This document shows, piece after piece, positions 16,342-61,363 of a stretch of 64,000 nucleotides of DNA. The notes under the pieces are model-generated. The model had not been told where the DNA came from. It saw nothing but the letters and a program-made list of their open reading frames with translations, and searched no databases. The position numbers and the translations under genes are program-made. Numbering within the stretch: position 1 is the first letter of the stretch; each line of letters opens with the position of its first letter. The stretch is from the NCBI GenBank assembly GCA_039714775.1, contig JBDLIQ010000004.1, positions 20 to 64,019 on the forward strand, read 5' to 3'. Origin of the DNA: Bacteroidota bacterium. Lineage in GTDB: Bacteria > Bacteroidota > Bacteroidia > Bacteroidales > GCA-2748055.

Positions 16342-18102
16342 CTATTTCGATGAATAATACTCCTTAAATAGCCTGAAAAAATTATATGGATCCACTACTT
16401 CAATCTCTTTGTCCGGTCGTTTCTCTTTAAGCAGTTCAAGGGCATCGAATACCATGGTGGGAGTTGACCATACCACCCTGAAGAAGTAGAAGGCAGGTGT
16501 TGGTTCCGTGCAATGATATAGCATGGGAATGGCTGCAGACATCACATCTGCGGAAGCGTTGGCATTGTTAATCTGATTCACGGGGTTGAGCAGGTTCATA
16601 ACGGGCATGCCTTTCCACACATGGGGCTCAGGAGACTTACCCCCCGTGAAGTGAAGATCCATTACAATGGTAGCAAAACCATCCGGCGAGAATTGGGTAA
16701 ATGCATCCTTTACATCAGCCGTGGGCTCGTCCCAATCGAGTACCATGGGGGAGAGGGTCATGTCAAGCTGCTTATAGAACTTCTGGTTGTGTTCAATGAA
16801 AAGAGGAAGGTGCTCTGTGGCAATGCGGTTGGGATTCATATAGCCTGCAGCACTTGCATCGGCTGCAAAGTAATCGTTCTCTGAGTGGGTCTCATAGTAG
16901 TAGGAGATGATATCTGGGAAAGTCTCCACCAGGTTCGGATTGATGCCCCATAGTACCGGGATTTCACCCCTTCTTGGATCATCCCAGAATTTTGGCAGGA
17001 AATCATACAAGGGGGTTCCGGAATCGTAGTCGGCCATCAAAATGCAGATATAAGTTTTGTTTTCCAGCGGCTTCTCTTCTGCAGGACGGTGTTGCTTAAG
17101 CGGAAGCGATGGTGCCTGGCTGTGGAGTGACTGGTTGTAGCAGCTGCTGGCCACCGTGTTCTGGTAGCAGTTATAGGGGGAGATGAGGTAGACTGTTTCC
17201 CATTCCGTTGGGACAGGGTCATGGGCACTCGGGTGACCCGGAACATTGCTGTATTTGGAGAATGAGAAGAACCCGGCTACTTCTGTCATCTGTTGTCCGG
17301 CAGTCTGATTAAGGATTTCGGCAAGCATCACCTGGTAGGTGGCCAGATCCGTACCCAATTCCTGGCCGGGATCATCCCCGGGAGCTTCATCTCCCCAGGG
17401 AGATAGATCATAAACGAATGAACGGTTCACCACAGCCCAGTCCCTCGTTACCACATATCCGATATCACCTTTAGCACGGGTTGAAAAGGGATCTTCATAA
17501 AGGCAAAGCAGATGGTCAGAGCAGACTCCTTTTGCGAGGTATTCACGGATGGCCCAGCGGTAGGCATCGTTTTTTGCACTGCCTGTCTCAACTCCTGTGA
17601 ACATGCCGCGAAGATCCTTAATAACTGTTAATCCCCACTTTGTCAGATACCGCTCCGCATACTCCGGACTCAATACAATGCCATCTTCCACACCTGCAAT
17701 GGTGGTGGCCACATTCATTGATGCCGGCACGGCAGGATCCCAGATAATGGCTCCCTGAACTTGTCCCTCGGTAAGGGCAAATAGTGAATCGATATCTTCA
17801 AGAACTACGATTTCCCGTCCGCTGAGCCATCGCTCTTCCGACATCATAATATCCAGCCAGTAGTCTGGTGTGGTTTGTGTCGTTCCTGAGTTCTGAAGAA
17901 TATAAACCAATGTGGTATCCCGGTTGATTATACCCTGCAGGCATGCCACCGCCATCGCTTCATCGTATGATTCAACGGTGCCGTCTGATAACAGGGTATA
18001 GGTATAAAGTGGTAGTGATGGGGAAGAACCTTTCACAGTGATAGCACTGATTAGTAAAAAAACTCCCGCTAACAGCAGGGAACTTATATTTTTCTTTCTC
18101 AT
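16342..18102 (-). CDS. Secreted hypothetical protein, possibly GxGYxYP-family putative glycoside hydrolase
   Basis: ATG start and signal peptide. The size (586 aa), the position directly downstream of SusD/DUF3823 and a degenerate AAGYMNP motif fit that family. The assignment is tentative. Confidence 0.35.
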   Translation of the reverse strand: MRKKNISSLLLAGVFLLISAITVKGSSPSLPLYTYTLLSDGTVESYDEAMAVACLQGIINRDTTLVYILQNSGTTQTTPDYWLDIMMSEERWLSGREIVVLEDIDSLFALTEGQVQGAIIWDPAVPASMNVATTIAGVEDGIVLSPEYAERYLTKWGLTVIKDLRGMFTGVETGSAKNDAYRWAIREYLAKGVCSDHLLCLYEDPFSTRAKGDIGYVVTRDWAVVNRSFVYDLSPWGDEAPGDDPGQELGTDLATYQVMLAEILNQTAGQQMTEVAGFFSFSKYSNVPGHPSAHDPVPTEWETVYLISPYNCYQNTVASSCYNQSLHSQAPSLPLKQHRPAEEKPLENKTYICILMADYDSGTPLYDFLPKFWDDPRRGEIPVLWGINPNLVETFPDIISYYYETHSENDYFAADASAAGYMNPNRIATEHLPLFIEHNQKFYKQLDMTLSPMVLDWDEPTADVKDAFTQFSPDGFATIVMDLHFTGGKSPEPHVWKGMPVMNLLNPVNQINNANASADVMSAAIPMLYHCTEPTPAFYFFRVVWSTPTMVFDALELLKEKRPDKEIEVVDPYNFFRLFKEYYSSK

Positions 18103-18155
18103 TTGAAAAATTTGTGAATCTGTTTTTATTTCATACGATTAGCGTGTAGTCATTC

Positions 18156-18836
18156 CTAAATACCCAGTCTTACAGCTGTACAGAAGTTATACTTGGCTTC
18201 GGGAATATCTATTAATGCACACACTCTAAAGAAATAGTCCTTTCCCTTTTCCATCTTATTAGTTCTAAGCTCTATTGTAAAAACCTCATTCGGATCAACA
18301 ACAGCACCCACATTGGCTCCCTGTGTGGCTGTACGAATTCCAACTCCAACCGAAGGATTCAGATCTGCCACCAGCATAAGTGATTTAACAGGTTCGGAAG
18401 CAACCTGCTCAAGTTTAAAGGTTGCTATAACCCTACTGCTGTCTGCATTCAATTCCATATGTACATCATTGATCCGAATATATGGAAGCGCCATAAAGGT
18501 ATGCTCTGTCTCTCCACTGATCTCGATTGTTTCTACCGGAACCTCTAAAAAATTTCCACGCACAGGTTGAACCTCATAAGATCCGGAAAACATCAGGTTG
18601 TTGCGGAAGGTGCCATCCGCTTTAAACCTCAATTGTTGAATCTGGGGATTTTCAAACCCAAGCTCAATATAGTCTATCACAGAACCCTGGATCAGGTCCT
18701 GGGGGATCGGCTCGTTGGTATCCATGTCAATGATGCTGCCATAGAATTTGGAATCGGGGGCATCGTAATTGTCCAGTTCACATGCACTGACCAACAGGCT
18801 AAGTATCACGATAATATATAAACCAATTGCTTTCAT
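18156..18836 (-). CDS. DUF3823-like PUL-associated lipoprotein (copy A)
   Basis: The ORF-track start at 18845 is GTG. An ATG at 18836 gives MKAIGLY..., matching the paralog start MKAINLY. Lipoprotein signal LLVSAC is followed by ELDNYDAPDS.FYGSIID, typical of DUF3823 proteins that follow SusD genes. Confidence 0.6.
   Translation of the reverse strand: MKAIGLYIIVILSLLVSACELDNYDAPDSKFYGSIIDMDTNEPIPQDLIQGSVIDYIELGFENPQIQQLRFKADGTFRNNLMFSGSYEVQPVRGNFLEVPVETIEISGETEHTFMALPYIRINDVHMELNADSSRVIATFKLEQVASEPVKSLMLVADLNPSVGVGIRTATQGANVGAVVDPNEVFTIELRTNKMEKGKDYFFRVCALIDIPEAKYNFCTAVRLGI
18517..18710. repeat. Near-identical tract shared with 53542-53735 (194 nt, 1 mismatch)
   Basis: Character-by-character comparison shows 18517-18644 identical to 53542-53669 (128 nt). 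There is one mismatch at 18645/53670. Then 18646-18710 is identical to 53671-53735 (65 nt). Confidence 0.95.
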
Positions 18837-18854
18837 TTTAGTCACGGTTATGAA

Positions 18855-20750
18855 TTAATACTGGGGATTTTGAGTTAAACCATTGGTTGCTATTCCCGGA
18901 ATGATTTTATAATAGTACTTCTCAAGGAAGGTATTAGGTACCGCATTAAATACATATTTTCTTATAAAAATGTATTTCATGGTTCTCAGATCAAGAACCG
19001 GTACAAGAGAATGCCTGATGGTATTATAAAACAGGGTATGATACTCCCTCCTCCTGGTCAGGTCCCAGTACCTCTTATTTTCAAAAACAAGCTCAACTCT
19101 TCTCTCTCTCATCACGTTTTCAAAAGTGAAGGGGATGTCTGATTGATGTGCAGCCCTGTGGCGCAGGGAGTTTATTCCCTTTGATGCCAGGGTGGCATCA
19201 CCGGAACCACTTTCTATTACAGCTTCAGCATGGTTCAGGATCACCTCTGCCAGTCTGAAGTCGATATAATCGGTGGTCGATTGATTCATGAGTTGGGATG
19301 GTACAAACTCTGAATCGAGGAATTTCTTAAAACCGAATCCGCTCCTGGTCATATTGTATCCGGTTGTACCAAATCCAGAGTAGAAGCCGGCACTGGATGC
19401 ACCATAGGTATAGTACATGGTTCCATCCACGTCGATGGAGGCATCTGCTTCAATGACGGCCGTTCCGTCGGGTTGGATATATCCGCCCTGGATGATAATC
19501 TCTGTATCTTTCCAGATGGACATGGGCAGGATGACAGTAGCACTTAACCTTGCATCCTTGCCGGTAAAGATGTCCAGGGGATGATCAAACTCAAGATAGC
19601 TCCTTGAGGGATCATAACCATCGTAGTTGTCCACGTCGCCATCGACCGTGGTCACGATGGGAGCACTTTGCCCCGGATCTGCATAATTTTCATACACATC
19701 TGCCAAATCCAGGGTGGGATTGAACCGTCCCGGATGGGGCCATGACCCTTTGGTCTGGTTGGGATTGCCCCAGTTGTCCTGGTTACTCCCCATTTCATCA
19801 CCGGGAATATTAAACCCCTTCATAAAGATTACCTCGCAAAGTGCACGGTTGGGATTTTCAAACATCTGCCTGTAGTTCTCACTTGCCTCTTCCGGAGTCG
19901 ACGGAGTAGGTTCATAAAGCGAGAATGGGCCTGTATTGATGAGCTCTTCTGATGCACTGATACATGCTGCGTAATAGCGATCAGCTTCAGAAGCTTCCAT
20001 TCCTACCAACCCTGCATCGACAGCTGCTCCTGAAAGGGGAGCCTGGTTCCAGTATTTAGCAACAGAAGCAGCATGGAGGGCAGCCCTTGATTTCAGGGCC
20101 AATGCAGCCCATTTAGTAGCTCTTTTCCGGGCCCCGTCACCTTCTCCCAGATAGAGGGCAGCCGTGTCACAGGCAGACAACACAAAATCCCATGTCTCTT
20201 TTTCTGTGCTCCTGGGGACATGAAGACCCTCAGTTCCTTCATTGATATCGGCAATCTCTGTAATAATCGGAACACCACCGAATCTTTTGGCCAGGCCATA
20301 GTAGCCGTATGCCCGCAGAAACCAGGCTTCACCTTTCATTGCATCCTTGCTCTCCTGGTCAGTATCCAATTGGGGAATGATATCAATCAGGAGATTGACA
20401 TCCTTGTTAAATTTATATCCACGTTCCCACCAGGAAGCGTAATCAAGACCACCCCAGCCTACAACTACCTGGTGCTGTGAACCCACCGCATCATCGTGCA
20501 TAATATATGGATAGAACCCTGCATTATTGGGCCAGGGAGGATTCCAGCTAAGCCCTTCTGGTGCAACAGAATTGAAGTCCTCAATAGGCGCGTGGGCATA
20601 GAGGTTGGCCATATATGACTGTATTCCCTCCGGACTGGAAAAGAGATCTTCCGCGCTTATTTTGTCTGTGGGTTCAAGTTCTAAGAAGTCCTTGCTACAG
20701 CTGATAAAACTTATAGCAGAGATAAATACAATTATTTTGTAAAATTTCAT
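18855..20750 (-). CDS. susD: SusD/RagB-family outer-membrane glycan-binding lipoprotein (copy A)
   Basis: ATG start. Lipoprotein signal ISFISCSKDFLELEPTDKISAEDLF. The length, the position immediately after SusC and the conserved C-terminal ...RRVELVFENKRYWDLTRR motif are typical of SusD homologs. Confidence 0.9.
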   Translation of the reverse strand: MKFYKIIVFISAISFISCSKDFLELEPTDKISAEDLFSSPEGIQSYMANLYAHAPIEDFNSVAPEGLSWNPPWPNNAGFYPYIMHDDAVGSQHQVVVGWGGLDYASWWERGYKFNKDVNLLIDIIPQLDTDQESKDAMKGEAWFLRAYGYYGLAKRFGGVPIITEIADINEGTEGLHVPRSTEKETWDFVLSACDTAALYLGEGDGARKRATKWAALALKSRAALHAASVAKYWNQAPLSGAAVDAGLVGMEASEADRYYAACISASEELINTGPFSLYEPTPSTPEEASENYRQMFENPNRALCEVIFMKGFNIPGDEMGSNQDNWGNPNQTKGSWPHPGRFNPTLDLADVYENYADPGQSAPIVTTVDGDVDNYDGYDPSRSYLEFDHPLDIFTGKDARLSATVILPMSIWKDTEIIIQGGYIQPDGTAVIEADASIDVDGTMYYTYGASSAGFYSGFGTTGYNMTRSGFGFKKFLDSEFVPSQLMNQSTTDYIDFRLAEVILNHAEAVIESGSGDATLASKGINSLRHRAAHQSDIPFTFENVMRERRVELVFENKRYWDLTRRREYHTLFYNTIRHSLVPVLDLRTMKYIFIRKYVFNAVPNTFLEKYYYKIIPGIATNGLTQNPQY

Positions 20751-20760
20751 TTCAATAGCA

Positions 20761-23700
20761 TTAAAAATTAATATTTGCTCCGAGATTAACTGTTCTCAAA
20801 ATAGGGTAGGTCCAGCCTGCTGAGTAGGACCCGCCAATCGACTCAGGATCAAAAGCTTTAATAAATTTATCAGCCAATGTAAAAACATTGTTCACATTCA
20901 CATATACCCTCACATTTTGAATGCCTACTCGCTGAATGGCAGCTCTGTTGAGGCTGTACCCCAGTTCGATATTCTTAAATCGTAAATATGTAGCAGATCG
21001 TCTCCATACATCACTTTCGGCATAAGTCATTCCTACATCTTCCATTGCCATACCGACACGGGAGGCGGGCCACTCTCCGGGAATCCATTCACTTTCCGTA
21101 TTATAGGGGTCTGACCGATGCCAGCGGTCCATAAAGTAGGCCGGGAGGTTCCCCTCGTCCCAGAACATGGTGGAGTAGGCATGTGTATACCGTGCCGTAT
21201 AATTTGCAGCACCCTGAAACAGGAGGTTGAGATCAAAACCTTTCCATGAAACATTGAAGTTCAAACCATAATAGGTCTTTGGGTTTTCGTTGTATGCCAT
21301 GGGACTTGTATCATTGCCATCGATTACCCCGTCACCATTCAGGTCCTCATACCTGAAACTGCCGGGAAGCTCCTTGGAGTTTCCAAGGATCCCGTTCTGA
21401 GGGGGAGCAGACAGGACCTCCTCTTCGGATTGAAACTGACCGGTACTGTTAAACATCCAGACGATATCATTCCATCGGTTGGATGCTCCGGCCCTGTACT
21501 CCTCCCAGCTGCTGGTGTATGAAGCAGATTCAACATACACATTCATCGACCGGGAAAAGTTTACATTTCCGGATACTCCGTAAATAAACTCACCTATCTG
21601 GTTGCTATGGTTGAATGAAAATTCAATCCCCCTCACCCTGTCACTGTTCAGGTTCTCCTGTGGAAGTGTACCTCCAAAAGTATTGGGAATTGTGACATTC
21701 CTGTAAGCGAGCAAACCGGTCCGGTCCCGCTGGTATACATCGGTAACAAAAGAGAGTTTGTTGTTGAAAAAACCCAGGTCAAGTCCAATGTCTTTGATCT
21801 CGGATTCCATCCATGTCAGGTCTTTGTTTACAATGGAGGGAGAGGCTGCTCCGATGGTATATTTTCCCTCGGTAAACTCCCATACATCACCCCCGGAAGT
21901 TGAGAAAGCCTGGACATACTGGAATGGGGCTCCCGCATCCTGACCAATAATCCCATAGGATCCCCTGATTTTTATGTTAGAGATCCACGAGATGTTGTCC
22001 CTGATAAAGCCCTCTTCAGAAATTCTCCATCCACCTGAAAGAACCGGAAAGAACCCCCATCTCTGATCGGGATGATATCGATATGAACCGTCATATCTGC
22101 CCGCAAACTCGATAAGGTATTTACCCAGGTAGTTATAGTTTAATCGTCCCAGGTAGGAGAGGTTCCTGACCTGCCATTCATTTCCGTTTGAAGCAGCATT
22201 CTCTTCTCCGGCCTGATCAATCTGGGCATTGGTGAAGAATTCATAGAATTTATTGATCCCTGCAACCCTTCCTGTCTCTTCTCTTCTTTCAAATACAAGC
22301 GTTGCCCCGATATTGTGTTTCTCTGCAATGGAGGTCTTGTAAATCCCCTGTACCTGTAGTGTGACCATGTTGGAGTTGCTGAATAGATTGTAGATGGAGG
22401 AGGGTGCATTAAAAGTGGTTGACATGTAAGTGTCGTCTTCTGCCCTGTAATCATACAGGTCATAATTCGTCCTAATCCCCTTACTTTGATGAAACCTCGG
22501 ATCATAGGCACCCACAGCCTTAAACTCCAGTCCCTCGATAAATGGAACCTTATAGCTTAAGTCAAAAGAGGTTTGAAATACCCGGTCCTCATTGATTGTA
22601 TATCCGGCCAGATCACTCTGTGCAATGGCTACCGGATTCATGGCCTGTCCATCCTGAACCCTGTGCAGGTATTCGGAATTGTCATTGGCATAGACCGGGT
22701 GAATGGGCAAAATGGAGACGGTTCCCCTCCAGATGTTAAAGATTCCGTCAACGGGAGAATTTCGCGTATCGGTAAAGCCGGAGATACTGATATTTGCCGT
22801 AAGGTTCTCTGTCAGTTTGGCTGATAGGTTGGTTCGGAAGTTGAATTTTTTATAATTGATATCACCACTCTGAAGCAAACCACCATCTTTCACTATCCCT
22901 ACATTAACATAGTAGGAGACCAATTCTGAACCACCCTCGGCTGATAAACTGTGCTCCTGTCGCATGGAACGTTTCAACAAGGTCTCTTCAGCCCAATTTG
23001 TGCTTTCGTAACCGGTTCCGCCCGCTTTCCAGTTGGCAAGCTCTTCCTGGGAGATATAGGGTTCCATTCCTATATTCACATTTGCATCATTGCGCATTTC
23101 ATAATACTGGGCGGCATTGGCCATCTCCGGAATATCCGTAGGAGATGAGAAACCTGTGGTCGTGCTGAATACGAACTTTGTTTTTCCCTCTGCACCTTTT
23201 TTGGTGCTTACAATGATGACACCGTTGGCAGCATTCAGACCATAAATAGCTGCTGATGCGTCCTTAAGCACAGAAATACTTTCGATATCATCTGCATTGA
23301 GCCTTTGAAAATCAGCTGATCCTGACCTTACGATTCCGTCTATGACGAAAAGGGGTTCCCCAAATCCACGGATGTTGATGGCGTTTGAGAAGGCTCCCGG
23401 TTCACCCGTATTTTGACGAATATTCAGTCCGGATACCTTTCCGGAGAGTTTTTGGGCCAGGCTGGTTGCCGTGGTAGTTGTAATCTCATCGTCATCCACA
23501 GTGGAGATGGCACCGGTCAGGCTTTTTTTCTTCTGGTATCCATAGCCAACGGCAACGACCTCTTCCAATCCGATCGCCTCTACCTCCATGATGATATTAA
23601 TATCGGTTCTTCCGTTAATATCAACTTCCATGGTTTTCATCCCCACAAAAGAAGCTTCCAGGGTGCTTGCCTCCGGACTTACAGTAATGGAATAGGATCC

Positions 23701-23904
23701 ATTGACGTCGGTGATGCTCCCCGTACCCGGATCGCCTTTTACAGTCACTGTCACACCTGGCAAAGGACCACTATGATCCGTTATGATACCACTAATTTCA
23801 TGATCTTGTGCTGTTTGCGCAAGCACAGATAAAAAACTCATTTGCAAAAGCAGGAAAACCATTGTTAACAATGGGATTTTCATGCTGAAACTAGTTTTAT
23901 CCAT
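20761..23904 (-). CDS. susC: SusC/RagA-family TonB-dependent outer-membrane transporter (copy A)
   Basis: The ORF-track start at 23931 is TTG. An ATG at 23904 gives MDKTSFSMKIPLL..., as in the paralog (an alternative ATG lies at 23883). It has a carboxypeptidase-regulatory-like domain (ISGIITDHSGPLPGVTVTVKG), a plug region (NIRGFGEPLFVIDGI) and a terminal ...LGANINF. I see no STN domain. Confidence 0.9.
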   Translation of the reverse strand: MDKTSFSMKIPLLTMVFLLLQMSFLSVLAQTAQDHEISGIITDHSGPLPGVTVTVKGDPGTGSITDVNGSYSITVSPEASTLEASFVGMKTMEVDINGRTDINIIMEVEAIGLEEVVAVGYGYQKKKSLTGAISTVDDDEITTTTATSLAQKLSGKVSGLNIRQNTGEPGAFSNAINIRGFGEPLFVIDGIVRSGSADFQRLNADDIESISVLKDASAAIYGLNAANGVIIVSTKKGAEGKTKFVFSTTTGFSSPTDIPEMANAAQYYEMRNDANVNIGMEPYISQEELANWKAGGTGYESTNWAEETLLKRSMRQEHSLSAEGGSELVSYYVNVGIVKDGGLLQSGDINYKKFNFRTNLSAKLTENLTANISISGFTDTRNSPVDGIFNIWRGTVSILPIHPVYANDNSEYLHRVQDGQAMNPVAIAQSDLAGYTINEDRVFQTSFDLSYKVPFIEGLEFKAVGAYDPRFHQSKGIRTNYDLYDYRAEDDTYMSTTFNAPSSIYNLFSNSNMVTLQVQGIYKTSIAEKHNIGATLVFERREETGRVAGINKFYEFFTNAQIDQAGEENAASNGNEWQVRNLSYLGRLNYNYLGKYLIEFAGRYDGSYRYHPDQRWGFFPVLSGGWRISEEGFIRDNISWISNIKIRGSYGIIGQDAGAPFQYVQAFSTSGGDVWEFTEGKYTIGAASPSIVNKDLTWMESEIKDIGLDLGFFNNKLSFVTDVYQRDRTGLLAYRNVTIPNTFGGTLPQENLNSDRVRGIEFSFNHSNQIGEFIYGVSGNVNFSRSMNVYVESASYTSSWEEYRAGASNRWNDIVWMFNSTGQFQSEEEVLSAPPQNGILGNSKELPGSFRYEDLNGDGVIDGNDTSPMAYNENPKTYYGLNFNVSWKGFDLNLLFQGAANYTARYTHAYSTMFWDEGNLPAYFMDRWHRSDPYNTESEWIPGEWPASRVGMAMEDVGMTYAESDVWRRSATYLRFKNIELGYSLNRAAIQRVGIQNVRVYVNVNNVFTLADKFIKAFDPESIGGSYSAGWTYPILRTVNLGANINF

Positions 23905-24077
23905 CTCTTTCAGTTTGAGGTTAGAAATCAATTGTAGTTTTAGTAAAACTAAAAAACTAAGATATACCTACCTGCTTAACAGAAGAGTTAACAACAGAAT
24001 TAATGAAAGAATAATATCCACAAATTCTTATTGCTGCAGGTAACTTCGTGCTGGTTGAAAAGATGGCTCTGAAGCGA

Positions 24078-26600
24078 CTAATTGACATTCCCGGAATCCT
24101 CAATTACCTGATTAAAGGTTTTGGGGAAATTCTCGGCATAAAGCGTTTTGTACTCTTTTGTAAATATTGTGAATGCATCATTAGCAAGGCTATGTTTTCC
24201 CATGGAGGCCAGTATTTTGCATTTGATGGTCATTGCTTCTTCGTTCACCCTGTCAAAACAGAATACAGAATTAGCAAGGTGAATTATAAAATCGGGGGCC
24301 TCCTTCCTGGCATTGACCGCTACATATCCGAGGATCCCATCGATAATCTCATTGGACAACTCCGCTTTGAAATCATCCAGCCAGTCCGCATTAATATTTG
24401 AAAGGGCAGGTCCCTTCTGAATAATGCTTAAAAGCCGCTTCATATCATTTTGTGACCAGCTTTTATAGTTCCTGGCAAGCTTGAGGTATTCATAATAATC
24501 AATACAATGATCACCATGCTCGAATTCAAATTTCCAGTACCCGGTCTCCTTGGATATATGGCAATTGCCCACATTAAGAAGTAGTGTCCTTAATTTGGCC
24601 ATATTGACTGACCTGTTGTTTTGGGCTGACTGCTCCGATTTGTCAAACCAGAAGATCTCATCTAATGCTTTGGAAGTAACTCCCTTTTCAAAGCGCAGGG
24701 AGTTTAGCATAATGTACAGGAACAGCTCTTTCAGCAAGGGGGTGAATGAACCGGTGATGTTATCACCACGCTTATCGATTACCAGAAAATCACCAAATAT
24801 TTGTATCGACCCTGAATTTCCTGCACTCTTTGTTTTACTGAATGATCCTGAATCTTCCTGCTTATTCTTTCCTCTTTTCATCCATAAAACAACAAGTGTT
24901 ACAACCAGGATTGCAATGGCGATATATATATATCGCAGTGATAAAGAACGGTTTATGTGTGAGTGGGTCGCATTAGCGAATTCCACTGGCGGATAGGCAA
25001 TCTCGTGGATGGAGAGACTGGTGTTTTGTTCATCAAAAAAGGATGTGACTGAAATCAGCTTCTGCTCCTTCTTGTTATAAAAAAGATCAATGGTGGATTT
25101 GATGTCCAAAAACTGAAACGTAAAGGTGTCTCCAACATAACGCAAGTTAAAATCGTCGAGGGAGATTGCAACGGCCTGAAGTTTTGGATTTGCTTCGTAT
25201 TTGGAAAACTTCAATCCATACAGGATATTGGAGGCCGTATCAATATGGAGCGAATTGGAGAAACAGAAATCATCTGATCGCTTATCAAACTCAGCAAGGG
25301 TAGTGAAACAATTCTTTTCGAAGGAATATGCTATCAGGTCATAATAGTAGCCCGGGTTCAATGCCTGGTCACTGGTTTTACTCCCATATCCCCCAAGGAT
25401 GTATGCACTTTTTTTTCCAGGATGGTATCCAAGTCCGGCCAGGTACCTGGGGTAAAAGGTACCCGAATAGGCGACCGTGTCCCATGTACTCAATGTGTCA
25501 TTATAACAGTATACAGAGTTGAAATACTTATAATGTCCATATCCTCCGAACATAAACAGTTGATTTTTTTTGGGGAAGATGATACTGTTATGGTTCCTGT
25601 ATATTGCTTCGTGTTTCGGAAAATGGAAAACTATGGTATCGAATTCGATTTCAGGAAGGGGGACTTTTGTGTTACTGTCAAACAGGTAACAGAAGACTTG
25701 ATTGCTTTTGGGTTCAATGATTAATCGAAAGTTAGAGTTTTTTTCAAAACGGATTGGGGAGGGAGTACCAGATATTTTACCCGTGCCAGGATTGTACCTG
25801 AGTAATGAATCGCTTGTCATCAGGACCAGTTCATTGGCTTCCTGGTTGTAAACGTATCTAATTCTATCTCTCATTATAAAAGAGTGGTTCAGGGTCCATT
25901 GTGAATGAAGGTTTTTGATCCAGATGGGATGGCTTACAAGCCCGTGGTTGCCCGATTTCTGATCGATCACATCTTCTCCGCTTACCTGGTCAAGGGTCCA
26001 GTGATGGATGGTCTTGTTTCTCTTTTTGATTTTTATGGAACGGATATTCATGGCAGGTACGTCGGTGGCGCTGAATCTCTCGAAACGATGGGCACCAAAC
26101 AACAATTTAAGCGCTGCCTTTTTTCCTGAAACCTCAATATGGTCGGTAAATATCGTGTCGCCCACAGAGAGTAAAAGTTCCTGGTTTTTCAGATCTATTT
26201 TCATCTTCACGGTGATCCAATCAGAGGTGATCTCTTCCAGGGGCAGGTGAAAAGAGATCTTGTGGATCGGTTCTCCTGAAACCAGATGAAAGTTATCCGG
26301 ATTGTCACTAAACTGATTAAAGATCAGATCGTAATTCTTTCCGTTTACAATGGCACGAAAAATATAGCCGAAGTAATACTTCTGGTTGGGTTCAATCCGC
26401 AAATCAAAACTCAATTCAAATTCTGAGCCCGGGTGAATTGGCCTTCCGGGTGTCAGATCCAAACCGGTTCGCTGATCAAGAGGAGCTTCAGAGCCCTTAA
26501 AATGAAGCCCGGTGTGATCTTGCCCGAAATCATCTTGCGCGATGAAAAGGAATATCGCTGAGAATATAATGGTATATATATGATGCAACAGACTTGTCAT
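24078..26600 (-). CDS. Single-pass membrane regulator: exported LamG-like + Kelch/beta-propeller-like sensor, TM helix, cytoplasmic SARP-like winged-helix + BTAD domain (copy A)
   Basis: ATGs occur at 26621 and 26600; the latter aligns with the paralog start. The N-terminal hydrophobic signal is IYTIIFSAIFLFIAQ. Repeats such as LFMFGGYGHYKYFNSVY and AYILGGYGSKT look Kelch-like. The TM helix YIYIAIAILVVTLVVLWM lies at about 24881-24934. The C-terminal ~265 aa read IQIFGDFLVIDKRGDNITGSFTPLLKELFLYIMLN...ALDEIFW...NNRSVNMAKLRTLL...GYWKFEF...DWLDDFKAEL...EEAMTIKCKILASMGKHSLANDAFTIFTKEY, which matches the SARP/BTAD layout. Confidence 0.65.
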   Translation of the reverse strand: MTSLLHHIYTIIFSAIFLFIAQDDFGQDHTGLHFKGSEAPLDQRTGLDLTPGRPIHPGSEFELSFDLRIEPNQKYYFGYIFRAIVNGKNYDLIFNQFSDNPDNFHLVSGEPIHKISFHLPLEEITSDWITVKMKIDLKNQELLLSVGDTIFTDHIEVSGKKAALKLLFGAHRFERFSATDVPAMNIRSIKIKKRNKTIHHWTLDQVSGEDVIDQKSGNHGLVSHPIWIKNLHSQWTLNHSFIMRDRIRYVYNQEANELVLMTSDSLLRYNPGTGKISGTPSPIRFEKNSNFRLIIEPKSNQVFCYLFDSNTKVPLPEIEFDTIVFHFPKHEAIYRNHNSIIFPKKNQLFMFGGYGHYKYFNSVYCYNDTLSTWDTVAYSGTFYPRYLAGLGYHPGKKSAYILGGYGSKTSDQALNPGYYYDLIAYSFEKNCFTTLAEFDKRSDDFCFSNSLHIDTASNILYGLKFSKYEANPKLQAVAISLDDFNLRYVGDTFTFQFLDIKSTIDLFYNKKEQKLISVTSFFDEQNTSLSIHEIAYPPVEFANATHSHINRSLSLRYIYIAIAILVVTLVVLWMKRGKNKQEDSGSFSKTKSAGNSGSIQIFGDFLVIDKRGDNITGSFTPLLKELFLYIMLNSLRFEKGVTSKALDEIFWFDKSEQSAQNNRSVNMAKLRTLLLNVGNCHISKETGYWKFEFEHGDHCIDYYEYLKLARNYKSWSQNDMKRLLSIIQKGPALSNINADWLDDFKAELSNEIIDGILGYVAVNARKEAPDFIIHLANSVFCFDRVNEEAMTIKCKILASMGKHSLANDAFTIFTKEYKTLYAENFPKTFNQVIEDSGNVN

Positions 26601-26646
26601 ATGAGAATCAAATATAGCCATTAGTTTACCAACATCTTCAAGAGGG

Positions 26647-40371: not shown

Positions 40372-40398
40372 GAATTCCAGGTTTAACGTTGCATTAAT

Positions 40399-40436
40399 AA
40401 ATGAATAAAAAGAGAGTGCCCCGAGAGACACCCTCT
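40399..40436 (-). terminator. Candidate intrinsic terminator after the 1221-aa gene
   Basis: The reverse strand reads AAGAGGGTG-tctctcgggg-CACTCTCTT. This is a 9-bp stem including one G.U pair, followed by TTTATTCATTTATT. It lies 74 nt downstream of the stop at 40510. Confidence 0.45.
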
Positions 40437-44175: not shown

Positions 44176-44352
44176 AAAGTTGAGAATTGGTTAGTAATAT
44201 ATTTTGATTAGGGTAAATCTATTCTGAGACGTTTAATGGTTGATTAAATTAATATTAATGCATTGTCTCAATATGCGTTTTACTGATGATATGATGATGC
44301 ATTTGGTTATCAAGGCCATTTGATGTTCCTTGTCAAATGACTGGTACTCTGG

Positions 44353-53180: not shown

Positions 53181-53861
53181 CTAAATTCCCAATCTTATCG
53201 CTGTACAGAAGTTATACTTGGCTTCAGGAACATCTATTAAAGCACATACTCTAAAGAAATAGTCCTTTCCCTTTTCCAACCTATTAGTTCTCAGCTCTAT
53301 TGTAAAAACGTCATTAGGATCAACAACTGTACCTACATTTTGTCCCTGTGTTACCGTACGAATTCCAACTCCAACCGAAGGATTCAGATCTGCCACCAGC
53401 ATAAGTGATTTAACAGGTTCGGAAGCAACCTGCTCTAGTTTGAATGTTGCTATAACCTTACTGCTGTCTGCATTCAATTCCATATTAACATCATTGATCC
53501 GAATATATGGAAGCGCCATAAAGGTATGCTCTGTGTCCCCGCTGATCTCGATTGTTTCTACCGGAACCTCTAAAAAATTTCCACGCACAGGTTGAACCTC
53601 ATAAGATCCGGAAAACATCAGGTTGTTGCGGAAGGTGCCATCCGCTTTAAACCTCAATTGTTGAATCTGAGGATTTTCAAACCCAAGCTCAATATAGTCT
53701 ATCACAGAACCCTGGATCAGGTCCTGGGGGATCGGTTCGTTGGTATCCATGTCGATGATACTTCCGAAGAAACTGGCATCAGGTGCATCGTAATTGTCCA
53801 GCTCGCATGCACTGACCAGCAGACCAAGTATCGCTATGATATATAAATTAATTGCTTTCAT
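53181..53861 (-). CDS. DUF3823-like PUL-associated lipoprotein (copy B)
   Basis: ATG start. It is colinear with and almost identical in protein sequence to copy A (18156-18836). Lipoprotein signal LLVSAC. Confidence 0.6.
   Translation of the reverse strand: MKAINLYIIAILGLLVSACELDNYDAPDASFFGSIIDMDTNEPIPQDLIQGSVIDYIELGFENPQIQQLRFKADGTFRNNLMFSGSYEVQPVRGNFLEVPVETIEISGDTEHTFMALPYIRINDVNMELNADSSKVIATFKLEQVASEPVKSLMLVADLNPSVGVGIRTVTQGQNVGTVVDPNDVFTIELRTNRLEKGKDYFFRVCALIDVPEAKYNFCTAIRLGI
53542..53735. repeat. Near-identical tract shared with 18517-18710 (194 nt, 1 mismatch)
   Basis: See the partner feature at 18517-18710. The offset between the copies is 35025 nt. Confidence 0.95.
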
Positions 53862-53879
53862 AATATCTGTTTTAGATAA

Positions 53880-55769
53880 TTAATACTGAGGATTCTGGAT
53901 CAATCCGTTTGAACCAATACCAGGTATTGCTTTGTAGTACCAGGCTTCCAGAAAAGTATGTGGATTGGTATTTAAAATCACCTTTCTTACAAAAATATAC
54001 TTCATTGTTCTTAAATCTAAAATTGGAACAAGTGAGTGTCTGTTGGTCTGGAAAAATGCAGTATGGTACTCTCTTCTTCGTATAAGATCCCAATACCTTT
54101 TATTCTCAAATGCCAGCTCTACCCTTCTTTCACGTAGCACGTTTTCAAGTGATAATGGAATATCGGTTGTATGAGCAGCCCTGTGACGAATGTCATTTAT
54201 AACCTCTTCAGCCAAAGCAGCATCACCTGCTCCACTCTCCACAACAGCCTCTGCATAGTTCAACAGAACCTCAGCATATCGGAAATCAATCCAATCGGTC
54301 AGTGAGTAGTTCCAACCCAACTTTGGTACATATTGTGAGTCAAGAAATTTTCTAAAAAGAAAACCTGTCCGGGTATAATTACCACCGGTTGGATCAAATC
54401 CTGAATACAATTTTGTATTTGAACCGCCATAGGTATAATAGATGGTGCTATCTACCTCAATTTCTGCTTTTTGTTCAATTTTTGGTGTGCCATCCGGTTG
54501 AATATAGCCACCCTGAATGATAATCTCCACACCTTTCCATATTGAACTTGGAAGAATGGTTGTAGCGTGCAGGCGTGCATCTTTACTGGCAAAAATATCA
54601 CCCGGATGATCAAACTCCAGGTAGCTTCTGCTTGCATCATATCCGTCGTAATTATAGACATTACCATCAACTGTTGTTACAACAGGGGCAGACTGACCGG
54701 GATTGGAATAATCTTCATAAGCATCTACAAACTCTATTGTTGGATTAAAACGACCGGGATGAGGCCAGGCTCCGGCAGTTTGTGCAGGGTTTCCCCAGTT
54801 ATCCTGGTTACTACCCAGATCCACACCCTCAAGTGTAAATCCTTTTAAAAATATAACCTCATCAAGAGAGCGGTTAGGGTCTTCAAACATCTCTCTGTAA
54901 TTTTCTGCTGCCTCTTCCGGACCTGCAGGTGAAGCTTTATAGAGAGAAAAACGACCCGATTTTATAATTGAGTCAGATGCATTGATACATGCAAGATAGT
55001 ATTCAGCTGCAACAGACGGATCCATTCCTACCAGGCCTGCATCCTTTGCTGCACCCGACAGTGGCGCACGATCCCAATATTTAGCCACAGAGGCTGCATG
55101 CAGCGCTGCTCTTGACTTCAGCGCATATGCTGCCCATTTGGTGCCTCTGCGCCTGTTTCCATCTCCATCCCCAAGTAGTGAGGCAGCAATATCGCAGTTT
55201 TCAAGAACAAAATCCCATGTCTCCTTTTCTGTGCTTCTCGGAACATTCATGGCCTCCTGGTCATCTAGATCAGCTATCTCAGTGATAATCGGAACGCCAC
55301 CATATCTTTTTGCCAATGCATAATAGATGTATGCACGCATGAAGGCTGCCTCACCCAGCAGGGCATCTTTCTCCTCCTCACTTACCTTTAGTTCAGGAAT
55401 AACACTAAACAACAGGTTAACATCTCTGTTAAGCTTATAGCCTTCATTCCACCAATAAAAACTCCACGGTCCATGACAGATGTCATCACGTTGTGATCCA
55501 CAGGCATCATCCGTAATAATAATAGGAAAATGGCCATTAATATTTGCATCAGCAGTATTCCAGCTTATTCCATTGTCAGGGGTTGAGTTAAAGTCTTCAA
55601 TGGGCATTTGATAATATAACCCGGCCATAAATGTTTTTACACCCTCAGGACTTGAGAAGAGAGCATCTGCACTTACCTTATCGGTCGGTTCCAGTTGAAG
55701 ATAGTCAGCATTGCAACCAACCATTCCGATTAAGGACAATACTATAATTATTTTTCTATTGAACTTCAT
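53880..55769 (-). CDS. susD: SusD/RagB-family lipoprotein (copy B)
   Basis: ATG start and lipoprotein signal IGMVGCNADYLQLEPTDKVSADALF. It is colinear with copy A, roughly two-thirds identical by eye. Confidence 0.9.
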   Translation of the reverse strand: MKFNRKIIIVLSLIGMVGCNADYLQLEPTDKVSADALFSSPEGVKTFMAGLYYQMPIEDFNSTPDNGISWNTADANINGHFPIIITDDACGSQRDDICHGPWSFYWWNEGYKLNRDVNLLFSVIPELKVSEEEKDALLGEAAFMRAYIYYALAKRYGGVPIITEIADLDDQEAMNVPRSTEKETWDFVLENCDIAASLLGDGDGNRRRGTKWAAYALKSRAALHAASVAKYWDRAPLSGAAKDAGLVGMDPSVAAEYYLACINASDSIIKSGRFSLYKASPAGPEEAAENYREMFEDPNRSLDEVIFLKGFTLEGVDLGSNQDNWGNPAQTAGAWPHPGRFNPTIEFVDAYEDYSNPGQSAPVVTTVDGNVYNYDGYDASRSYLEFDHPGDIFASKDARLHATTILPSSIWKGVEIIIQGGYIQPDGTPKIEQKAEIEVDSTIYYTYGGSNTKLYSGFDPTGGNYTRTGFLFRKFLDSQYVPKLGWNYSLTDWIDFRYAEVLLNYAEAVVESGAGDAALAEEVINDIRHRAAHTTDIPLSLENVLRERRVELAFENKRYWDLIRRREYHTAFFQTNRHSLVPILDLRTMKYIFVRKVILNTNPHTFLEAWYYKAIPGIGSNGLIQNPQY

Positions 55770-55780
55770 AGCTACTCAAT

Positions 55781-58921: not shown

Positions 58922-59040
58922 TTTCTTTAGTTTTAGGTTTAGAGTATTATTGTTGTTTTTAGGTTGTTTGAAAAGCTAAAATATCTCTGCTTGCTTAAAA
59001 AAGGATTAATTAAAGTATAATAGTTGGTGTTTGATATGTT

Positions 59041-61302: not shown

Positions 61303-61363
61303 GTAGACAAAGAAGCGTTTGTTTACATAAAAAATGATTAATAATTAATTAACCGGGAGCTGT

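What the first reader, a model, noticed from the sequence alone, without database searches (positions are those of the whole stretch)
24078..26621. PUL regulators of an unusual type: exported LamG/Kelch sensor, one TM helix, cytoplasmic SARP-like wHTH-BTAD
Both SusC/SusD modules are headed by paralogous ~850-aa proteins (24078-26621 and 61364-63928).

These proteins have none of the hallmarks of the known PUL regulator classes:
- hybrid two-component systems
- SusR
- ECF sigma/anti-sigma (the SusC genes also lack an STN domain)
- AraC, LacI or GntR types

Reading the sequence gives this order:
- an N-terminal signal
- about 230 aa of LamG-like beta-sandwich
- Kelch-like repeats (GGYG...Y motifs)
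- one strong TM helix
- a C-terminal ~265 aa whose pattern matches the SARP family. That pattern is I.IFG.F.V...G..I, then LLKELFLYIMLN, then ALDE.FW, then NNRSVN.AKLR.LL, then GYWKFEF, followed by a helical EEAM..KCK.LA..GKH..A...F..F..EY repeat. It corresponds to an OmpR-type winged helix plus a BTAD.

That implies a one-component, membrane-tethered glycan sensor that binds DNA directly. The topology would be N-out/C-in, the inverse of ToxR/CadC. I am not aware of this architecture being characterised as a PUL regulator.
Basis: partly seen in the sequence, partly recalled or inferred. Interest (0 to 1): 0.8.

Follow-up and report, generated by a model that had tools for sequence, protein, structure and literature searches.

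The report
Membrane-tethered SARP-type regulators of mannosidase/PUL genes
Two paralogous ~850-aa proteins each join an exported Kelch-propeller sensor, through one membrane helix, to a cytoplasmic DNA-binding module with the fold of Streptomyces antibiotic regulators (SARPs); they belong to a large, experimentally uncharacterised Bacteroidota family that most likely switches on alpha-mannosidase and SusC/SusD genes by binding triple 11-bp repeats in their promoters.

Summary
ORFs 24078-26621(-) and 61364-63928(-) are about 70% identical. Each has an N-terminal signal, a ~200-aa beta-sandwich, a Kelch propeller, one TM helix and a ~245-aa C-terminal module. Pfam sees only Kelch. The "LamG" label is unsupported.

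The positive-inside rule over 117 homologues places the SARP module in the cytoplasm. The family has about 2,200 clusters at 50% identity, and every named organism is Bacteroidota. Its tightest neighbour is GH92 alpha-mannosidase (directly adjacent in 40 of 81 loci); SusC lies within 10 kb in 34 of 81.

New here: a candidate operator of three TTAA-core repeats at 11-bp spacing, ending 8 bp before the -7 promoter box, which is the SARP promoter geometry. It occurs in 32 of 44 adjacent target promoters. A matrix built from other genomes puts its best window hit (34.9 bits; null maximum 18.5) in the gap between regulator 2 and GH92.

IMG/JGI and UniRef already auto-label some members SARP/BTAD, and "SARP-OmpR" is reportedly listed among predicted PUL regulators, but I found no experimental characterisation. 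Verdict: new variant of a known kind.

The parts
24078..26621 (-). Regulator 1 (847 aa; the true start is probably Met8 at 26600). It is a Kelch-TM-SARP one-component regulator.
   Evidence: ORF and translation. Full-length AF2 model at pLDDT 88.6. 186 homologues of about 850 aa.
26523..26621 (-). Regulator 1 aa 1-33: N-terminal hydrophobic signal, with predicted signal-peptidase-I cleavage at G33|Q34.
   Evidence: Hydropathy. [AGS]-Q is conserved in 49 of 55 members. The Bacteroidota Q-rule is from my own knowledge.
25908..26522 (-). Regulator 1 aa 34-238: periplasmic beta-sandwich domain of undetermined fold class; the LamG label is not verified.
   Evidence: AF2 strands at pLDDT mostly above 90. 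No Pfam, PDB-profile or hhalign match.
24987..25907 (-). Regulator 1 aa 239-545: periplasmic Kelch beta-propeller, the presumed ligand-binding sensor.
   Evidence: Pfam Kelch_1, Kelch_3, Kelch_4 and Kelch_6 above gathering scores. Foldseek matches to Kelch propellers at E 1e-10 to 1e-13. Weak NanM/YjhT mutarotase hits for the paralogue.
24876..24944 (-). Regulator 1 aa 560-582: the single transmembrane helix. A disordered linker of low conservation follows (aa 583-600).
   Evidence: Hydropathy 2.37, conserved position in homologues. K/R 1.7 before versus 5.0 after the helix, n = 117. AF2 helix 560-582.
24081..24809 (-). Regulator 1 aa 605-847: cytoplasmic SARP module. The OmpR-type winged helix spans aa ~605-705, with the recognition helix near SAQNNRSVNMAKLR. 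An all-helical BTAD spans aa ~706-841.
   Evidence: AF2 pLDDT 93. Foldseek top six hits are EmbR and AfsR. Invariant residues A, N, N and V in the recognition helix.
61364..63928 (-). Regulator 2 (854 aa), a paralogue with the same architecture; TM helix at aa ~553-571.
61323..61356 (-). Candidate operator A, in the 61-bp gap between regulator 2 and GH92: GTTAATTAATT ATTAATCATTT TTTATGTAAAC, followed by a -7-like box (CTTCTTTG).
   Evidence: Scores 34.9 bits with a matrix built only from other genomes; null maximum per 64 kb has mean 6.7 and largest value 18.5. Sequence.
58991..59024 (-). Candidate operator B in the SusC2 leader: ATTATACTTTA ATTAATCCTTT TTTAAGCAAGC, followed by a -7-like box (TATTTTAG).
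   Evidence: 14.3 bits, the second-best independent hit in the window. It lies 103 nt upstream of the SusC2 ATG in the correct orientation. The score alone is within the null range.
23976..24003 (-). Candidate operator C in the SusC1 leader: three TTAA cores at 12/12-bp spacing (TTAATTCTGTTG TTAACTCTTCTG TTAAGC), followed by TATCTTAG.
   Evidence: The only match to that pattern in the window; chance expectation 0.01. Sequence. It shares the TTAAGCAgG...TAT.TTAG block with the SusC2 leader.
59041..61302 (-). GH92 alpha-mannosidase, the first gene after regulator 2 and a predicted direct target.
   Evidence: Pfam Glyco_hydro_92 at E 1.5e-169. GH92 is the commonest neighbour of the family.
53181..58921 (-). 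SusC2 (55781-58921), SusD2 (53880-55769) and DUF3823 (53181-53861): predicted regulated transport module 2.
   Evidence: Pfam.
16342..23931 (-). SusC1 (20761-23931; the probable ATG is at 23904), SusD1 (18855-20750), DUF3823 (18156-18845) and a GxGYxYP putative glycoside hydrolase (16342-18102): predicted regulated module 1.
   Evidence: Pfam. Start-codon argument.
44229..44262 (-). Possible additional operator D, upstream of the T9SS-tailed gene 40510-44175.
   Evidence: Strict TTAA-N7-TTAA-N7-TTAA at 44233-44258, the only such match in the window, chance 0.02. Matrix score 9.3 bits. It lies 87 nt upstream of the start codon.
40379..40412 (-). Possible additional operator E, upstream of the T9SS-tailed gene 36212-40366, followed by a perfect TAnnTTTG box.
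   Evidence: Matrix score 11.0 bits. It lies 46 nt upstream of the start codon. Weak on score alone.

Best explanation
Each protein is a single-pass inner-membrane, one-component transcription activator. The N-terminus is exported, and a signal peptide is probably cleaved before a conserved Gln. This places a beta-sandwich plus a Kelch propeller in the periplasm, where they most likely bind an oligosaccharide released from an alpha-mannoside-containing glycan (fungal or yeast mannan, or high-mannose N-glycan type). One TM helix and a flexible linker connect the sensor to a cytoplasmic SARP module (OmpR-type winged helix plus BTAD).

Ligand-driven oligomerisation or re-orientation is proposed to let two or three SARP modules bind head-to-tail to three 11-bp direct repeats. 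The repeat consensus is ATTAATcaATT aTTAATnnTTt aTTAAGnnn. These repeats cover the -33 region and end 8 bp upstream of the Bacteroidota -7 box (TAnnTTTG). As in AfsR, the bound activator would substitute for a poor upstream promoter element and recruit RNA polymerase, turning on GH92 and the SusC/SusD operons. In this window it may also turn on two T9SS-secreted proteins.

Shown by computation: the architecture, the fold, the topology bias, the gene linkage, and the existence, period-specificity and placement of the repeats.

Inferred: DNA binding to those repeats, activation rather than repression, the nature of the ligand, and the signalling step across the membrane.
For: - Fold: the six best PDB matches of the C-terminal model are all SARPs, over about 250 columns at probability 1.0, with a 4-log gap in E-value to the next hit.
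- Independent names: IMG/JGI calls many members SARP activators, and UniRef calls one member BTAD domain-containing.
- Topology: one conserved TM helix, K/R 1.7 outside versus 5.0 inside (n = 117), and an [AGS]-Q signal-cleavage motif in 49 of 55 members.
- Sensor: Kelch propeller by Pfam and Foldseek.
- Linkage: GH92 is directly adjacent in 40 of 81 loci. GH92 or SusC is adjacent in 52 of 81 and present within 10 kb in 70 of 81.
- Co-occurring families: GH99-like, GH3, GH43 and a GH95-like family.
- Operator, period specificity: TTAA-N7-TTAA-N7-TTAA occurs in 32 of 44 adjacent target regions, and the 12/11 variant in 10 more. Every other spacing from 8 to 14 bp gives 0 or 1.
- Operator, enrichment: 2.67 hits per kb in targets versus 0.058 per kb across whole loci.
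- Operator, phasing: fixed position relative to the -7 box.
- Operator, targets: oriented sites precede GH92 (35 of 58), SusC (14 of 38) and the GH95-like family (10 of 13). They precede SusD in 0 of 32 cases and unrelated ORFs in 6 of 291.
- Operator in the window: the best matrix hit (34.9 bits versus a null maximum of 18.5) lies in the regulator 2 to GH92 gap. All of the top independent hits fall in the 0.76% of strand-specific positions that are promoter-proximal.
- Geometry: it matches the published SARP rule of repeats 11 or 22 bp apart with the 3' repeat 8 bp from the -10 element (PMC10936776).
- Conservation: the wHTH is the most conserved domain family-wide, consistent with one operator type shared across orders.
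Against: - No Pfam Trans_reg_C hit in any of 21 members, and one weak BTAD hit at E 0.036.
- A family profile finds no SARP among PDB sequences, so homology to SARPs is supported by fold only.
- Identity to EmbR and AfsR is 12-13%.
- Window operators B to E are not significant on score alone. Operator C uses 12/12 spacing, which occurred in only 1 of the 44 adjacent target regions.
- The link between operator and regulator rests on association only. No binding data exist.
- Only 34 of 81 loci have a SusC gene within 10 kb, so 'PUL regulator' describes only part of the family.
- The ligand is inferred from neighbouring genes only.
- A GntR/UTRA regulator at 10755-11474 could also act on PUL1.
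Confidence: 0.65

Rival explanations
1. Same architecture and same DNA target, but the active form is not membrane-tethered. Ligand binding triggers regulated proteolysis in or near the TM helix or linker, and this releases a soluble 'small SARP' that activates the promoters.
For: The linker between the TM helix and the SARP module is disordered (pLDDT 36-40 at aa 583-600) and poorly conserved (32% identity between the paralogues; consensus fraction 0.23). A released domain would be the size of a small SARP, which PMC10936776 describes as the commonest form.
Against: No conserved protease gene travels with the family in the unbiased neighbour clustering. From my own knowledge, membrane-tethered wHTH regulators such as ToxR and CadC bind DNA without being released.
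Confidence: 0.15
2. It is a SARP-type DNA-binding activator, but the periplasmic domain does not sense a glycan. It might bind a protein partner or the envelope, or the protein might be constitutively active so that output is set by its abundance, as with many small SARPs.
For: Kelch propellers are mostly protein-interaction modules in the PDB hits. No carbohydrate-binding family was detected in the N-terminal domain.
Against: The conserved neighbours are almost all glycoside hydrolases and SusC/SusD genes. The paralogue gives weak hits to the periplasmic sugar-binding Kelch mutarotase NanM/YjhT. Periplasmic beta-propeller sensors of Bacteroides regulators also appear among the structural hits (3ott).
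Confidence: 0.12
3. The TTAA triple repeat is a real regulatory element but is bound by another factor, while the Kelch-TM-SARP protein acts elsewhere or indirectly.
For: The link between operator and regulator is associative only. A GntR regulator exists in the window, and PAS histidine kinases occur in 9 loci.
Against: The regulator is the only gene present in all 81 loci. The repeat geometry is specifically that of SARPs. The short-form locus, which has a divergent SARP module, lacks the motif. GntR-type sites are typically palindromes rather than head-to-tail triple repeats (my own knowledge).
Confidence: 0.06
4. It is not a regulator. It would be an enzyme or structural membrane protein, as the NCBI name 'galactose oxidase' suggests, with a TPR-like C-terminal scaffold.
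For: NCBI and UniRef names. The BTAD half also resembles TPR proteins weakly (ranks 7 and below).
Against: The 'galactose oxidase' name comes from Kelch-motif models only. The C-terminal model matches SARPs across both the wHTH and the BTAD, 4 logs better than any TPR protein. The recognition-helix motif is nearly invariant.
Confidence: 0.02

Closest known systems
SARP family activators (AfsR, EmbR, DnrI, ActII-ORF4) of Actinobacteria
   Same: The output module is an OmpR-type winged helix followed by an all-helical BTAD, by fold. The predicted targets carry head-to-tail repeats at 11-bp period that overlap the upstream promoter element, with the 3' repeat 8 bp from the downstream element (rule from PMC10936776).
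   Different: The SARP module is C-terminal and tethered to the membrane behind an exported Kelch sensor. Known SARPs are soluble, have the module at the N-terminus, and are modulated by NOD/TPR domains, FHA domains or phosphorylation. This family is Bacteroidota rather than actinomycete, controls catabolic glycan genes rather than antibiotic clusters, has a TTAA repeat core, and is too divergent for Pfam Trans_reg_C and BTAD.
ToxR / CadC / TcpP-type membrane-bound one-component wHTH regulators
   Same: A single TM helix joins a periplasmic sensor directly to a cytoplasmic OmpR-type winged helix, with no phosphorelay.
   Different: The polarity is inverted. ToxR and CadC are N-in (wHTH first) and C-out; here the sensor is N-terminal and exported, and the wHTH-BTAD is C-terminal. 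There is no BTAD in ToxR or CadC. These comparisons are from my own knowledge.
SusR-like and hybrid two-component (HTCS) PUL sensors of Bacteroides
   Same: They are inner-membrane proteins that sense periplasmic oligosaccharides and control the adjacent SusC/SusD and glycoside hydrolase genes. HTCS sensors also use periplasmic beta-propellers (3ott appears among the structural hits).
   Different: This family has no HisKA, HATPase, REC or AraC domains. Its output is a SARP module. Its sensor is a Kelch propeller plus a beta-sandwich of unknown fold class.
BT3853, the sensor of B. thetaiotaomicron PUL69 / MAN-PUL3
   Same: BT3853 is required for alpha-mannan induction of a PUL whose genes (GH92, GH99, GxGYxYP) mirror the neighbours of this family (10.1101/2025.07.13.664583; PMC4071793). 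None of the papers I could read names its class.
   Different: Its sequence could not be obtained here. No named gut Bacteroides protein was listed among the relatives, so membership is untested.
Short-form TM-SARP proteins (~490 aa, e.g. P0363, P0353, P0361)
   Same: They have the same TM helix plus SARP output module (E 1e-70 or better to the family profile). P0363, the one whose locus was examined, also heads a SusC/SusD locus.
   Different: They have no Kelch propeller, only a ~190-aa beta domain with marginal similarity to the N-terminal sandwich (hhalign probability 26%). Their neighbours are different (DcuC, amidohydrolase, M14 peptidase), and the locus has no TTAA triple repeat.

Membership tests
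SARP family | OmpR-type winged-helix DNA-binding domain, recognisable by sequence profile (Pfam Trans_reg_C PF00486) | tested here: not met
   No hit at E <= 10 for the isolated C-terminal domains. 0 of 21 family members hit at E <= 1.
SARP family | BTAD recognisable by sequence profile (Pfam PF03704) | tested here: inconclusive
   1 of 21 members hits at E 0.036, and the window proteins give no hit. UniRef names one member (P0093) 'BTAD domain-containing protein', and IMG names many members SARP.
SARP family | Three-dimensional fold: a winged helix packed against an all-helical BTAD | tested here: met
   AF2 pLDDT 93. All six Foldseek hits at E <= 1e-3 are EmbR or AfsR, with TMq 0.63-0.65 over about 250 columns; the next hit is at E 0.087.
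SARP family | Target promoters carry direct repeats 11 (or 22) bp apart, with the 3' repeat about 8 bp from the -10-type element | tested here: met
   This is an in-silico result only. The 11/11-spaced TTAA triple occurs in 32 of 44 adjacent promoters, while other spacings give 0 or 1 apart from the 12/11 variant. Heptamer 3 ends 8 bp before the -7 box. The rule is quoted from PMC10936776.
SARP family | Binds DNA and activates transcription through contacts with RNA polymerase | not testable with these tools
   Needs EMSA or DAP-seq, in vitro transcription, or genetics.
Kelch-repeat beta-propeller | Kelch motifs above the Pfam gathering score, and a propeller fold | tested here: met
   Kelch_3 scores 29.1 against a cut-off of 22, Kelch_6 26.2 against 25.3, Kelch_1 22.3 against 20.1, and Kelch_4 23.0 against 21.6. 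Foldseek matches LZTR1, Keap1 and KLHL Kelch domains at E about 1e-10.
   No Pfam hit at E <= 10. The family profile against PDB sequences gives only one chance hit. hhalign against the window's own Laminin_G_3 domain gives probability 0.2%. The fold class of the AF2 beta-sandwich could not be searched on its own.
Hybrid two-component system (HTCS) | HisKA, HATPase_c, REC and AraC-type HTH domains in one protein | tested here: not met
   None of these domains appears in Pfam or NCBIfam scans at E <= 1.
ECF sigma / anti-sigma PUL control | SusC with an N-terminal STN domain, plus adjacent sigma-70 r2/r4 and FecR genes | tested here: not met
   The SusC proteins have only CarbopepD_reg_2 and Plug domains. 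No sigma or FecR gene was found among the window ORFs scanned.
ToxR/CadC-type membrane one-component regulators | N-terminal cytoplasmic wHTH, one TM helix, C-terminal periplasmic sensor | tested here: not met
   The domain order is the reverse: sensor at the N-terminus, wHTH-BTAD at the C-terminus. It is a functional analogy only.
SusR-like regulators | Homology to SusR | not tested
   No SusR sequence or profile was available in the tools used. No Pfam or NCBIfam hit other than Kelch was found.
Galactose oxidase (the name NCBI gives to homologues) | Copper-radical oxidase catalytic site | not tested
   The name appears to come from Kelch-motif models titled 'Galactose oxidase, central domain' (Kelch_3 and Kelch_4). 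Nothing else in the protein points to an oxidase.

The most novel reading that the evidence does not exclude
A phylum-wide class of Bacteroidota transmembrane one-component sensors carries the SARP activation mechanism. That mechanism has so far been described mainly in actinomycetes and only for soluble proteins. In this class it would be coupled directly to periplasmic oligosaccharide sensing by a Kelch propeller, and it would act at Bacteroidota -33/-7 promoters through a defined operator: three TTAA-core repeats at 11-bp spacing. This would be a further major class of PUL/CAZyme-gene regulator, dedicated largely to alpha-mannoside (GH92/GH99) regulons. The unclassified alpha-mannan sensor BT3853 of B. 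thetaiotaomicron might belong to it.
Probability: 0.5. Interest if true: 0.75.

Novelty: new variant of a known kind. Interest (0 to 1): 0.62.

Why it matters
PUL regulation is understood mainly through HTCS, SusR-like and ECF/anti-sigma systems, and many PULs and CAZyme clusters outside gut Bacteroides have no assigned regulator. This family has about 2,200 clusters at 50% identity and at least 435 loci in species-representative genomes. NCBI mostly names its members 'galactose oxidase', 'Kelch repeat protein' or 'hypothetical protein', so annotation pipelines based on Pfam HTH models would miss it.

Recognising it gives four things:
1. A regulator assignment for many GH92/alpha-mannan-type loci in soil and sediment Bacteroidota.
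2. A concrete operator model that allows regulon prediction from sequence alone.
3. A test case for whether SARP-style activation works with the unusual Bacteroidota sigma factor and promoter.
4. A compact ligand-to-promoter sensor that could be used as a glycan biosensor.

It also shows that SARP modules can be driven by transmembrane signalling.

Tried and rejected
- Pfam and NCBIfam on the full-length proteins and on the isolated N- and C-terminal domains gave only Kelch hits.
- Scanning all 21 members of the C-terminal alignment against Pfam gave no Trans_reg_C hit and one marginal BTAD hit.
- A family HMM of the C-terminal module against PDB sequences gave only chance IgG-Fc hits at E about 0.2-1.5, so sequence profiles cannot link the family to SARPs.
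- A family HMM of the N-terminal domain against PDB sequences, and hhalign against the window's own Laminin_G_3 domain, found nothing. I dropped the LamG label.
- Foldseek on the full-length model was dominated by Kelch propellers, so it did not reveal the fold class of the N-terminal sandwich.
- The profile search with the C-terminal alignment returned mostly gene fragments from short contigs.
- I tried to decide whether BT3853 belongs to the family. Literature look-ups do not name its class. A third homology search, seeded with a member from a Bacteroides sp. MAG, listed no named gut Bacteroides. This remains unresolved.
- Terrapon 2015, the source of the 'SARP-OmpR' class, is not held in the library.
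- Autoregulation: only 1 of 83 regulator genes has an oriented operator upstream, and neither window regulator has one. I did not propose it.
- The GH99-like family that accompanies the regulators elsewhere is absent from the window.

Full report
1. OBSERVATION

The two ORFs exist exactly as described: 24078-26621(-) encodes 847 aa and 61364-63928(-) encodes 854 aa. They are paralogues at about 70% identity. The folded domains are 70-80% identical, while the signal and the TM-linker are only 31-32% identical.

Regulator 1 lies directly upstream of SusC, SusD, DUF3823 and GxGYxYP genes. Regulator 2 lies upstream of GH92, then SusC, SusD, DUF3823 and a GDPD/Laminin_G_3/T9SS gene. All are on the minus strand.

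The SusC proteins have CarbopepD_reg_2 and Plug domains but no STN. No HTCS, sigma/anti-sigma, AraC or LacI gene was found in the window.

2. ARCHITECTURE

Pfam and NCBIfam detect only Kelch motifs, above gathering scores, at aa ~343-445. The isolated N- and C-terminal parts have no Pfam hit even at E <= 10.

A full-length AlphaFold2 model built on 55 homologues has pLDDT 88.6:
- aa 2-29: N-terminal helix
- aa 39-230: beta-rich domain
- aa 243-542: propeller
- aa 560-582: TM helix
- aa 583-600: disordered linker
- aa 605-841: compact alpha/beta-then-helical module

Foldseek confirms the Kelch propeller, with LZTR1, Keap1 and KLHL domains at E 1e-10 to 1e-13.

The 'LamG-like' label for the N-terminal domain found no support. 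Its family profile has no PDB relative and does not align with the window's own Laminin_G_3 domain. It is a beta-sandwich of undetermined class.

3. THE C-TERMINAL MODULE IS SARP-LIKE BY FOLD

The C-terminal module was modelled alone from a 21-sequence alignment and reaches pLDDT 93 and pTM 0.86. Its secondary-structure order is that of an OmpR-type winged helix followed by seven helices.

Only six PDB matches reach E <= 1e-3. All six are SARPs: M. tuberculosis EmbR (2fez, 2ff4) and Streptomyces AfsR in transcription complexes (8hvr, 8k60). They score E 2e-6 to 1e-5, probability 1.0 and TMq 0.63-0.65 over about 250 aligned columns at 12-13% identity. The next hits are generic TPR proteins at E >= 0.087.

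At sequence level the relationship is invisible to Pfam: Trans_reg_C matches 0 of 21 members and BTAD 1 of 21 at E 0.036. A family HMM searched against PDB sequences also finds no SARP. However, IMG/JGI names many members 'DNA-binding SARP family transcriptional activator' or 'two-component SAPR family response regulator', and UniRef names one member 'BTAD domain-containing protein'.

The segment that forms the recognition helix (consensus ARNNRSVNIAKL) is nearly invariant. The wHTH is the most conserved domain across the family.

4. TOPOLOGY

One strongly hydrophobic helix is conserved at the same position in the homologues. Over 117 homologues, the 15 residues before it carry 1.7 K/R on average and the 15 after it carry 5.0. 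By the positive-inside rule the SARP module is cytoplasmic.

The N-terminus has a short hydrophobic stretch followed by [AGS]-Q in 49 of 55 members. From my own knowledge, this fits the signal-peptidase-I 'Q-rule' of Bacteroidota. The sandwich and the propeller are therefore periplasmic.

5. FAMILY AND GENOMIC CONTEXT

- The C-terminal profile finds 2,202 clusters at 50% identity with E <= 1e-3, and 924 with E <= 1e-30, among 1.84 billion representatives. Most are 840-900 aa with the module at the C-terminus.
- At least 435 loci occur in species-representative genomes. All 80 that were listed come from Bacteroidota: Sphingobacteriales, Cytophagales, Chitinophagales and Bacteroidales.
- In 81 loci with flanks of up to 10 kb, GH92 alpha-mannosidase is by far the commonest neighbour. 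It is directly adjacent (<= 600 bp) in 40 loci: 17 co-directional downstream, 14 divergent upstream, 6 convergent downstream and 3 co-directional upstream.
- SusC is directly adjacent in 13 loci. GH92 or SusC is present within 10 kb in 70 loci, but SusC in only 34.
- Other recurrent neighbours are a ~420-aa GH99-like family (37 loci), GH3, GH43, a DUF5703/GH95-like family, GDSL esterases and MFS transporters.
- In Pedobacter heparinus the order is regulator, MFS, SusC, SusD, GH99-like, then a metallophosphatase.

The family is therefore better described as a regulator of alpha-mannoside-type CAZyme genes that is often, but not always, embedded in PULs.

A second, shorter architecture of about 490 aa has a signal, a ~190-aa beta domain, the TM helix and the SARP module, with no Kelch propeller. 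One such protein heads a DcuC / amidohydrolase / M14 peptidase / SusC / SusD locus. So the TM-SARP output is reused with other sensors.

6. A CANDIDATE OPERATOR

The intergenic regions between the regulators and their adjacent GH92 or SusC genes carry three TTAA-core repeats.

- Period specificity. TTAA-N7-TTAA-N7-TTAA (11/11 spacing) occurs in 32 of 44 regions, and the 12/11 variant in 10 more. Every other combination of spacings from 8 to 14 bp occurs 0 or 1 times. This controls for AT-richness.
- Enrichment. The rate is 2.67 hits per kb in the target regions against 0.058 per kb over whole loci. 170 of the 176 strand-hits are intergenic.
- Consensus and phasing. The oriented consensus is ATTAATcaATT aTTAATnnTTt aTTAAGnnn, followed at a fixed distance by AnnTTTG, the Bacteroidota -7 box. 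Heptamer 3 ends 8 bp before that box, and the array covers the -33 region.
- Agreement with SARPs. This is the published SARP promoter rule: direct repeats 11 or 22 bp apart, with the 3' repeat 8 bp from the -10 element. AfsR protomers sit on such repeats and replace -35 recognition (PMC10936776).
- Downstream genes. Oriented sites of >= 20 bits precede GH92 (35 of 58), SusC (14 of 38), the GH95-like family (10 of 13), and GH99-like and GH3 genes. They precede SusD in 0 of 32 cases, the regulator in 1 of 83, and unrelated ORFs in 6 of 291.
- Negative example. The short-form locus has no such site; its best score is 1.5 bits.

In the window, a matrix built solely from other genomes gives its best hit at 61323-61356(-). 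That hit scores 34.9 bits, against a null maximum per 64 kb with mean 6.7 and largest value 18.5. It lies in the 61-bp gap between regulator 2 and GH92.

The next independent hits are the SusC2 leader (58991-59024, 14.3 bits) and sites upstream of two T9SS-tailed genes (40379-40412 at 11.0 bits; 44229-44262 at 9.3 bits). The last of these contains the window's only strict 11/11 TTAA triple. The SusC1 leader carries a 12/12-spaced triple at 23976-24003, with a chance expectation of 0.01.

All five sites lie 46-103 nt upstream of a start codon in the gene's orientation. Only 0.76% of strand-specific positions in the window belong to that class. Sites other than the first are not significant by score alone.

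7. MECHANISM PROPOSED

A periplasmic oligosaccharide binds the Kelch/sandwich ectodomain. Given the GH92, GH99-like and GxGYxYP context, it is most likely derived from an alpha-mannan or high-mannose glycan. The signal crosses the single TM helix, probably through a change in oligomeric state. Two or three cytoplasmic SARP modules then occupy the head-to-tail repeats on one face of the DNA and recruit RNA polymerase to promoters that lack a proper -33 element.

Shown by computation: the architecture, the fold, the topology bias, the linkage, and the properties of the repeats. Inferred: DNA binding, the sign of regulation, the ligand, and the transmembrane step.

The rival explanations, in order of weight:
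- proteolytic release of a soluble small SARP
- a signal that is not a glycan, or constitutive activity
- a different protein binding the repeats
- the 'galactose oxidase' annotation

8. COMPARISON WITH WHAT IS KNOWN, AND NOVELTY

The output module is a divergent SARP. It meets the fold criterion and the operator-geometry criterion, but not the Pfam sequence criterion.

The overall design works like ToxR and CadC with inverted polarity, and like SusR or an HTCS in its biological role. It is a member of none of these.

Prior knowledge exists only as annotation. IMG names many members SARP. PMC7641319 lists 'SARP-OmpR' among predicted PUL regulator families, citing Terrapon 2015, which I could not read. 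I found no paper that characterises such a protein.

A 2025 preprint shows that BT3853 of B. thetaiotaomicron is required for alpha-mannan induction of PUL69/MAN-PUL3. The gene content of that PUL (GH92, GH99, GxGYxYP) parallels the neighbours of this family. The preprint does not name BT3853's class, and I could not test whether BT3853 is a member.

My verdict is that this is a real feature and a new variant of a known kind: a SARP module in a transmembrane one-component sensor, in a new phylum and with a new role. It comes with a specific, testable operator model. Interest is moderate to high.

Noticed in passing
window 10755-11474 (-): A GntR+UTRA (HutC-type) regulator gene lies at the far end of the PUL1 gene string, after GH3 (12690-15341) and a mannitol-dehydrogenase-family gene (11488-12690).
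   Followed up: partly
window 3588-4607, 4588-5832, 15406-16278, 26647-30015, 36212-40366, 40510-44175, 50828-53173; also 32669-36211: The window is unusually dense in T9SS C-terminal-sorting-domain cargo genes. They include a large CotH-kinase-like protein with a lamin-tail domain (26647-30015), a PA14 / 3-keto-disaccharide-hydrolase-like / esterase protein, and a GDPD+Laminin_G_3 protein. A second CotH + lamin-tail protein (32669-36211) showed no sorting-domain hit. These genes lie between and around the two PULs.
   Followed up: partly
window 44229-44262 and 40379-40412: Operator-like triple repeats with -7-like boxes at the expected distance precede two T9SS-tailed genes (40510-44175 and 36212-40366). 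This suggests that the regulon may extend to secreted proteins.
   Followed up: partly
window 23904/23931 and 26600/26621: Start codons look mis-set. SusC1 probably starts at ATG 23904, by comparison with the SusC2 leader, rather than at TTG 23931. Regulator 1 probably starts at Met8 (26600). The database gene call for regulator 1 (P0001, 774 aa) cuts off conserved N-terminal residues.
   Followed up: partly
L082 10001-11482 and proteins P0353, P0361, P0363, P0356: These are short-form TM-SARP proteins of about 490 aa without a Kelch propeller. One heads a DcuC / amidohydrolase / M14 peptidase / SusC / SusD locus that lacks the TTAA triple repeat.
   Followed up: partly
L011 420-2942: The family member in a Bacteroides sp. 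MAG has a single in-frame stop inside the invariant PRYLAG motif. It is either a pseudogene or an assembly error.
   Followed up: no
loci L023, L036, L051 (Mucilaginibacter), between the regulator and GH92: Long GC-rich palindromes (for example GGAGACGCATGTGATGCGTCTC, present twice) lie between the operator and the GH92 start codon. Their function is unknown; they could be a leader structure or a REP-like element.
   Followed up: no
37 of 81 regulator loci (e.g. L012 17797-19056, L081 17825-18979): A ~420-aa family with weak GH99/WbsX similarity travels with the regulators at a median distance of about 2.6 kb. It is absent from this window.
   Followed up: partly
window 712-3612 (+), 45634-46806 (-): Two ORFs, 966 aa and 390 aa, have no Pfam match at all.
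   Followed up: no
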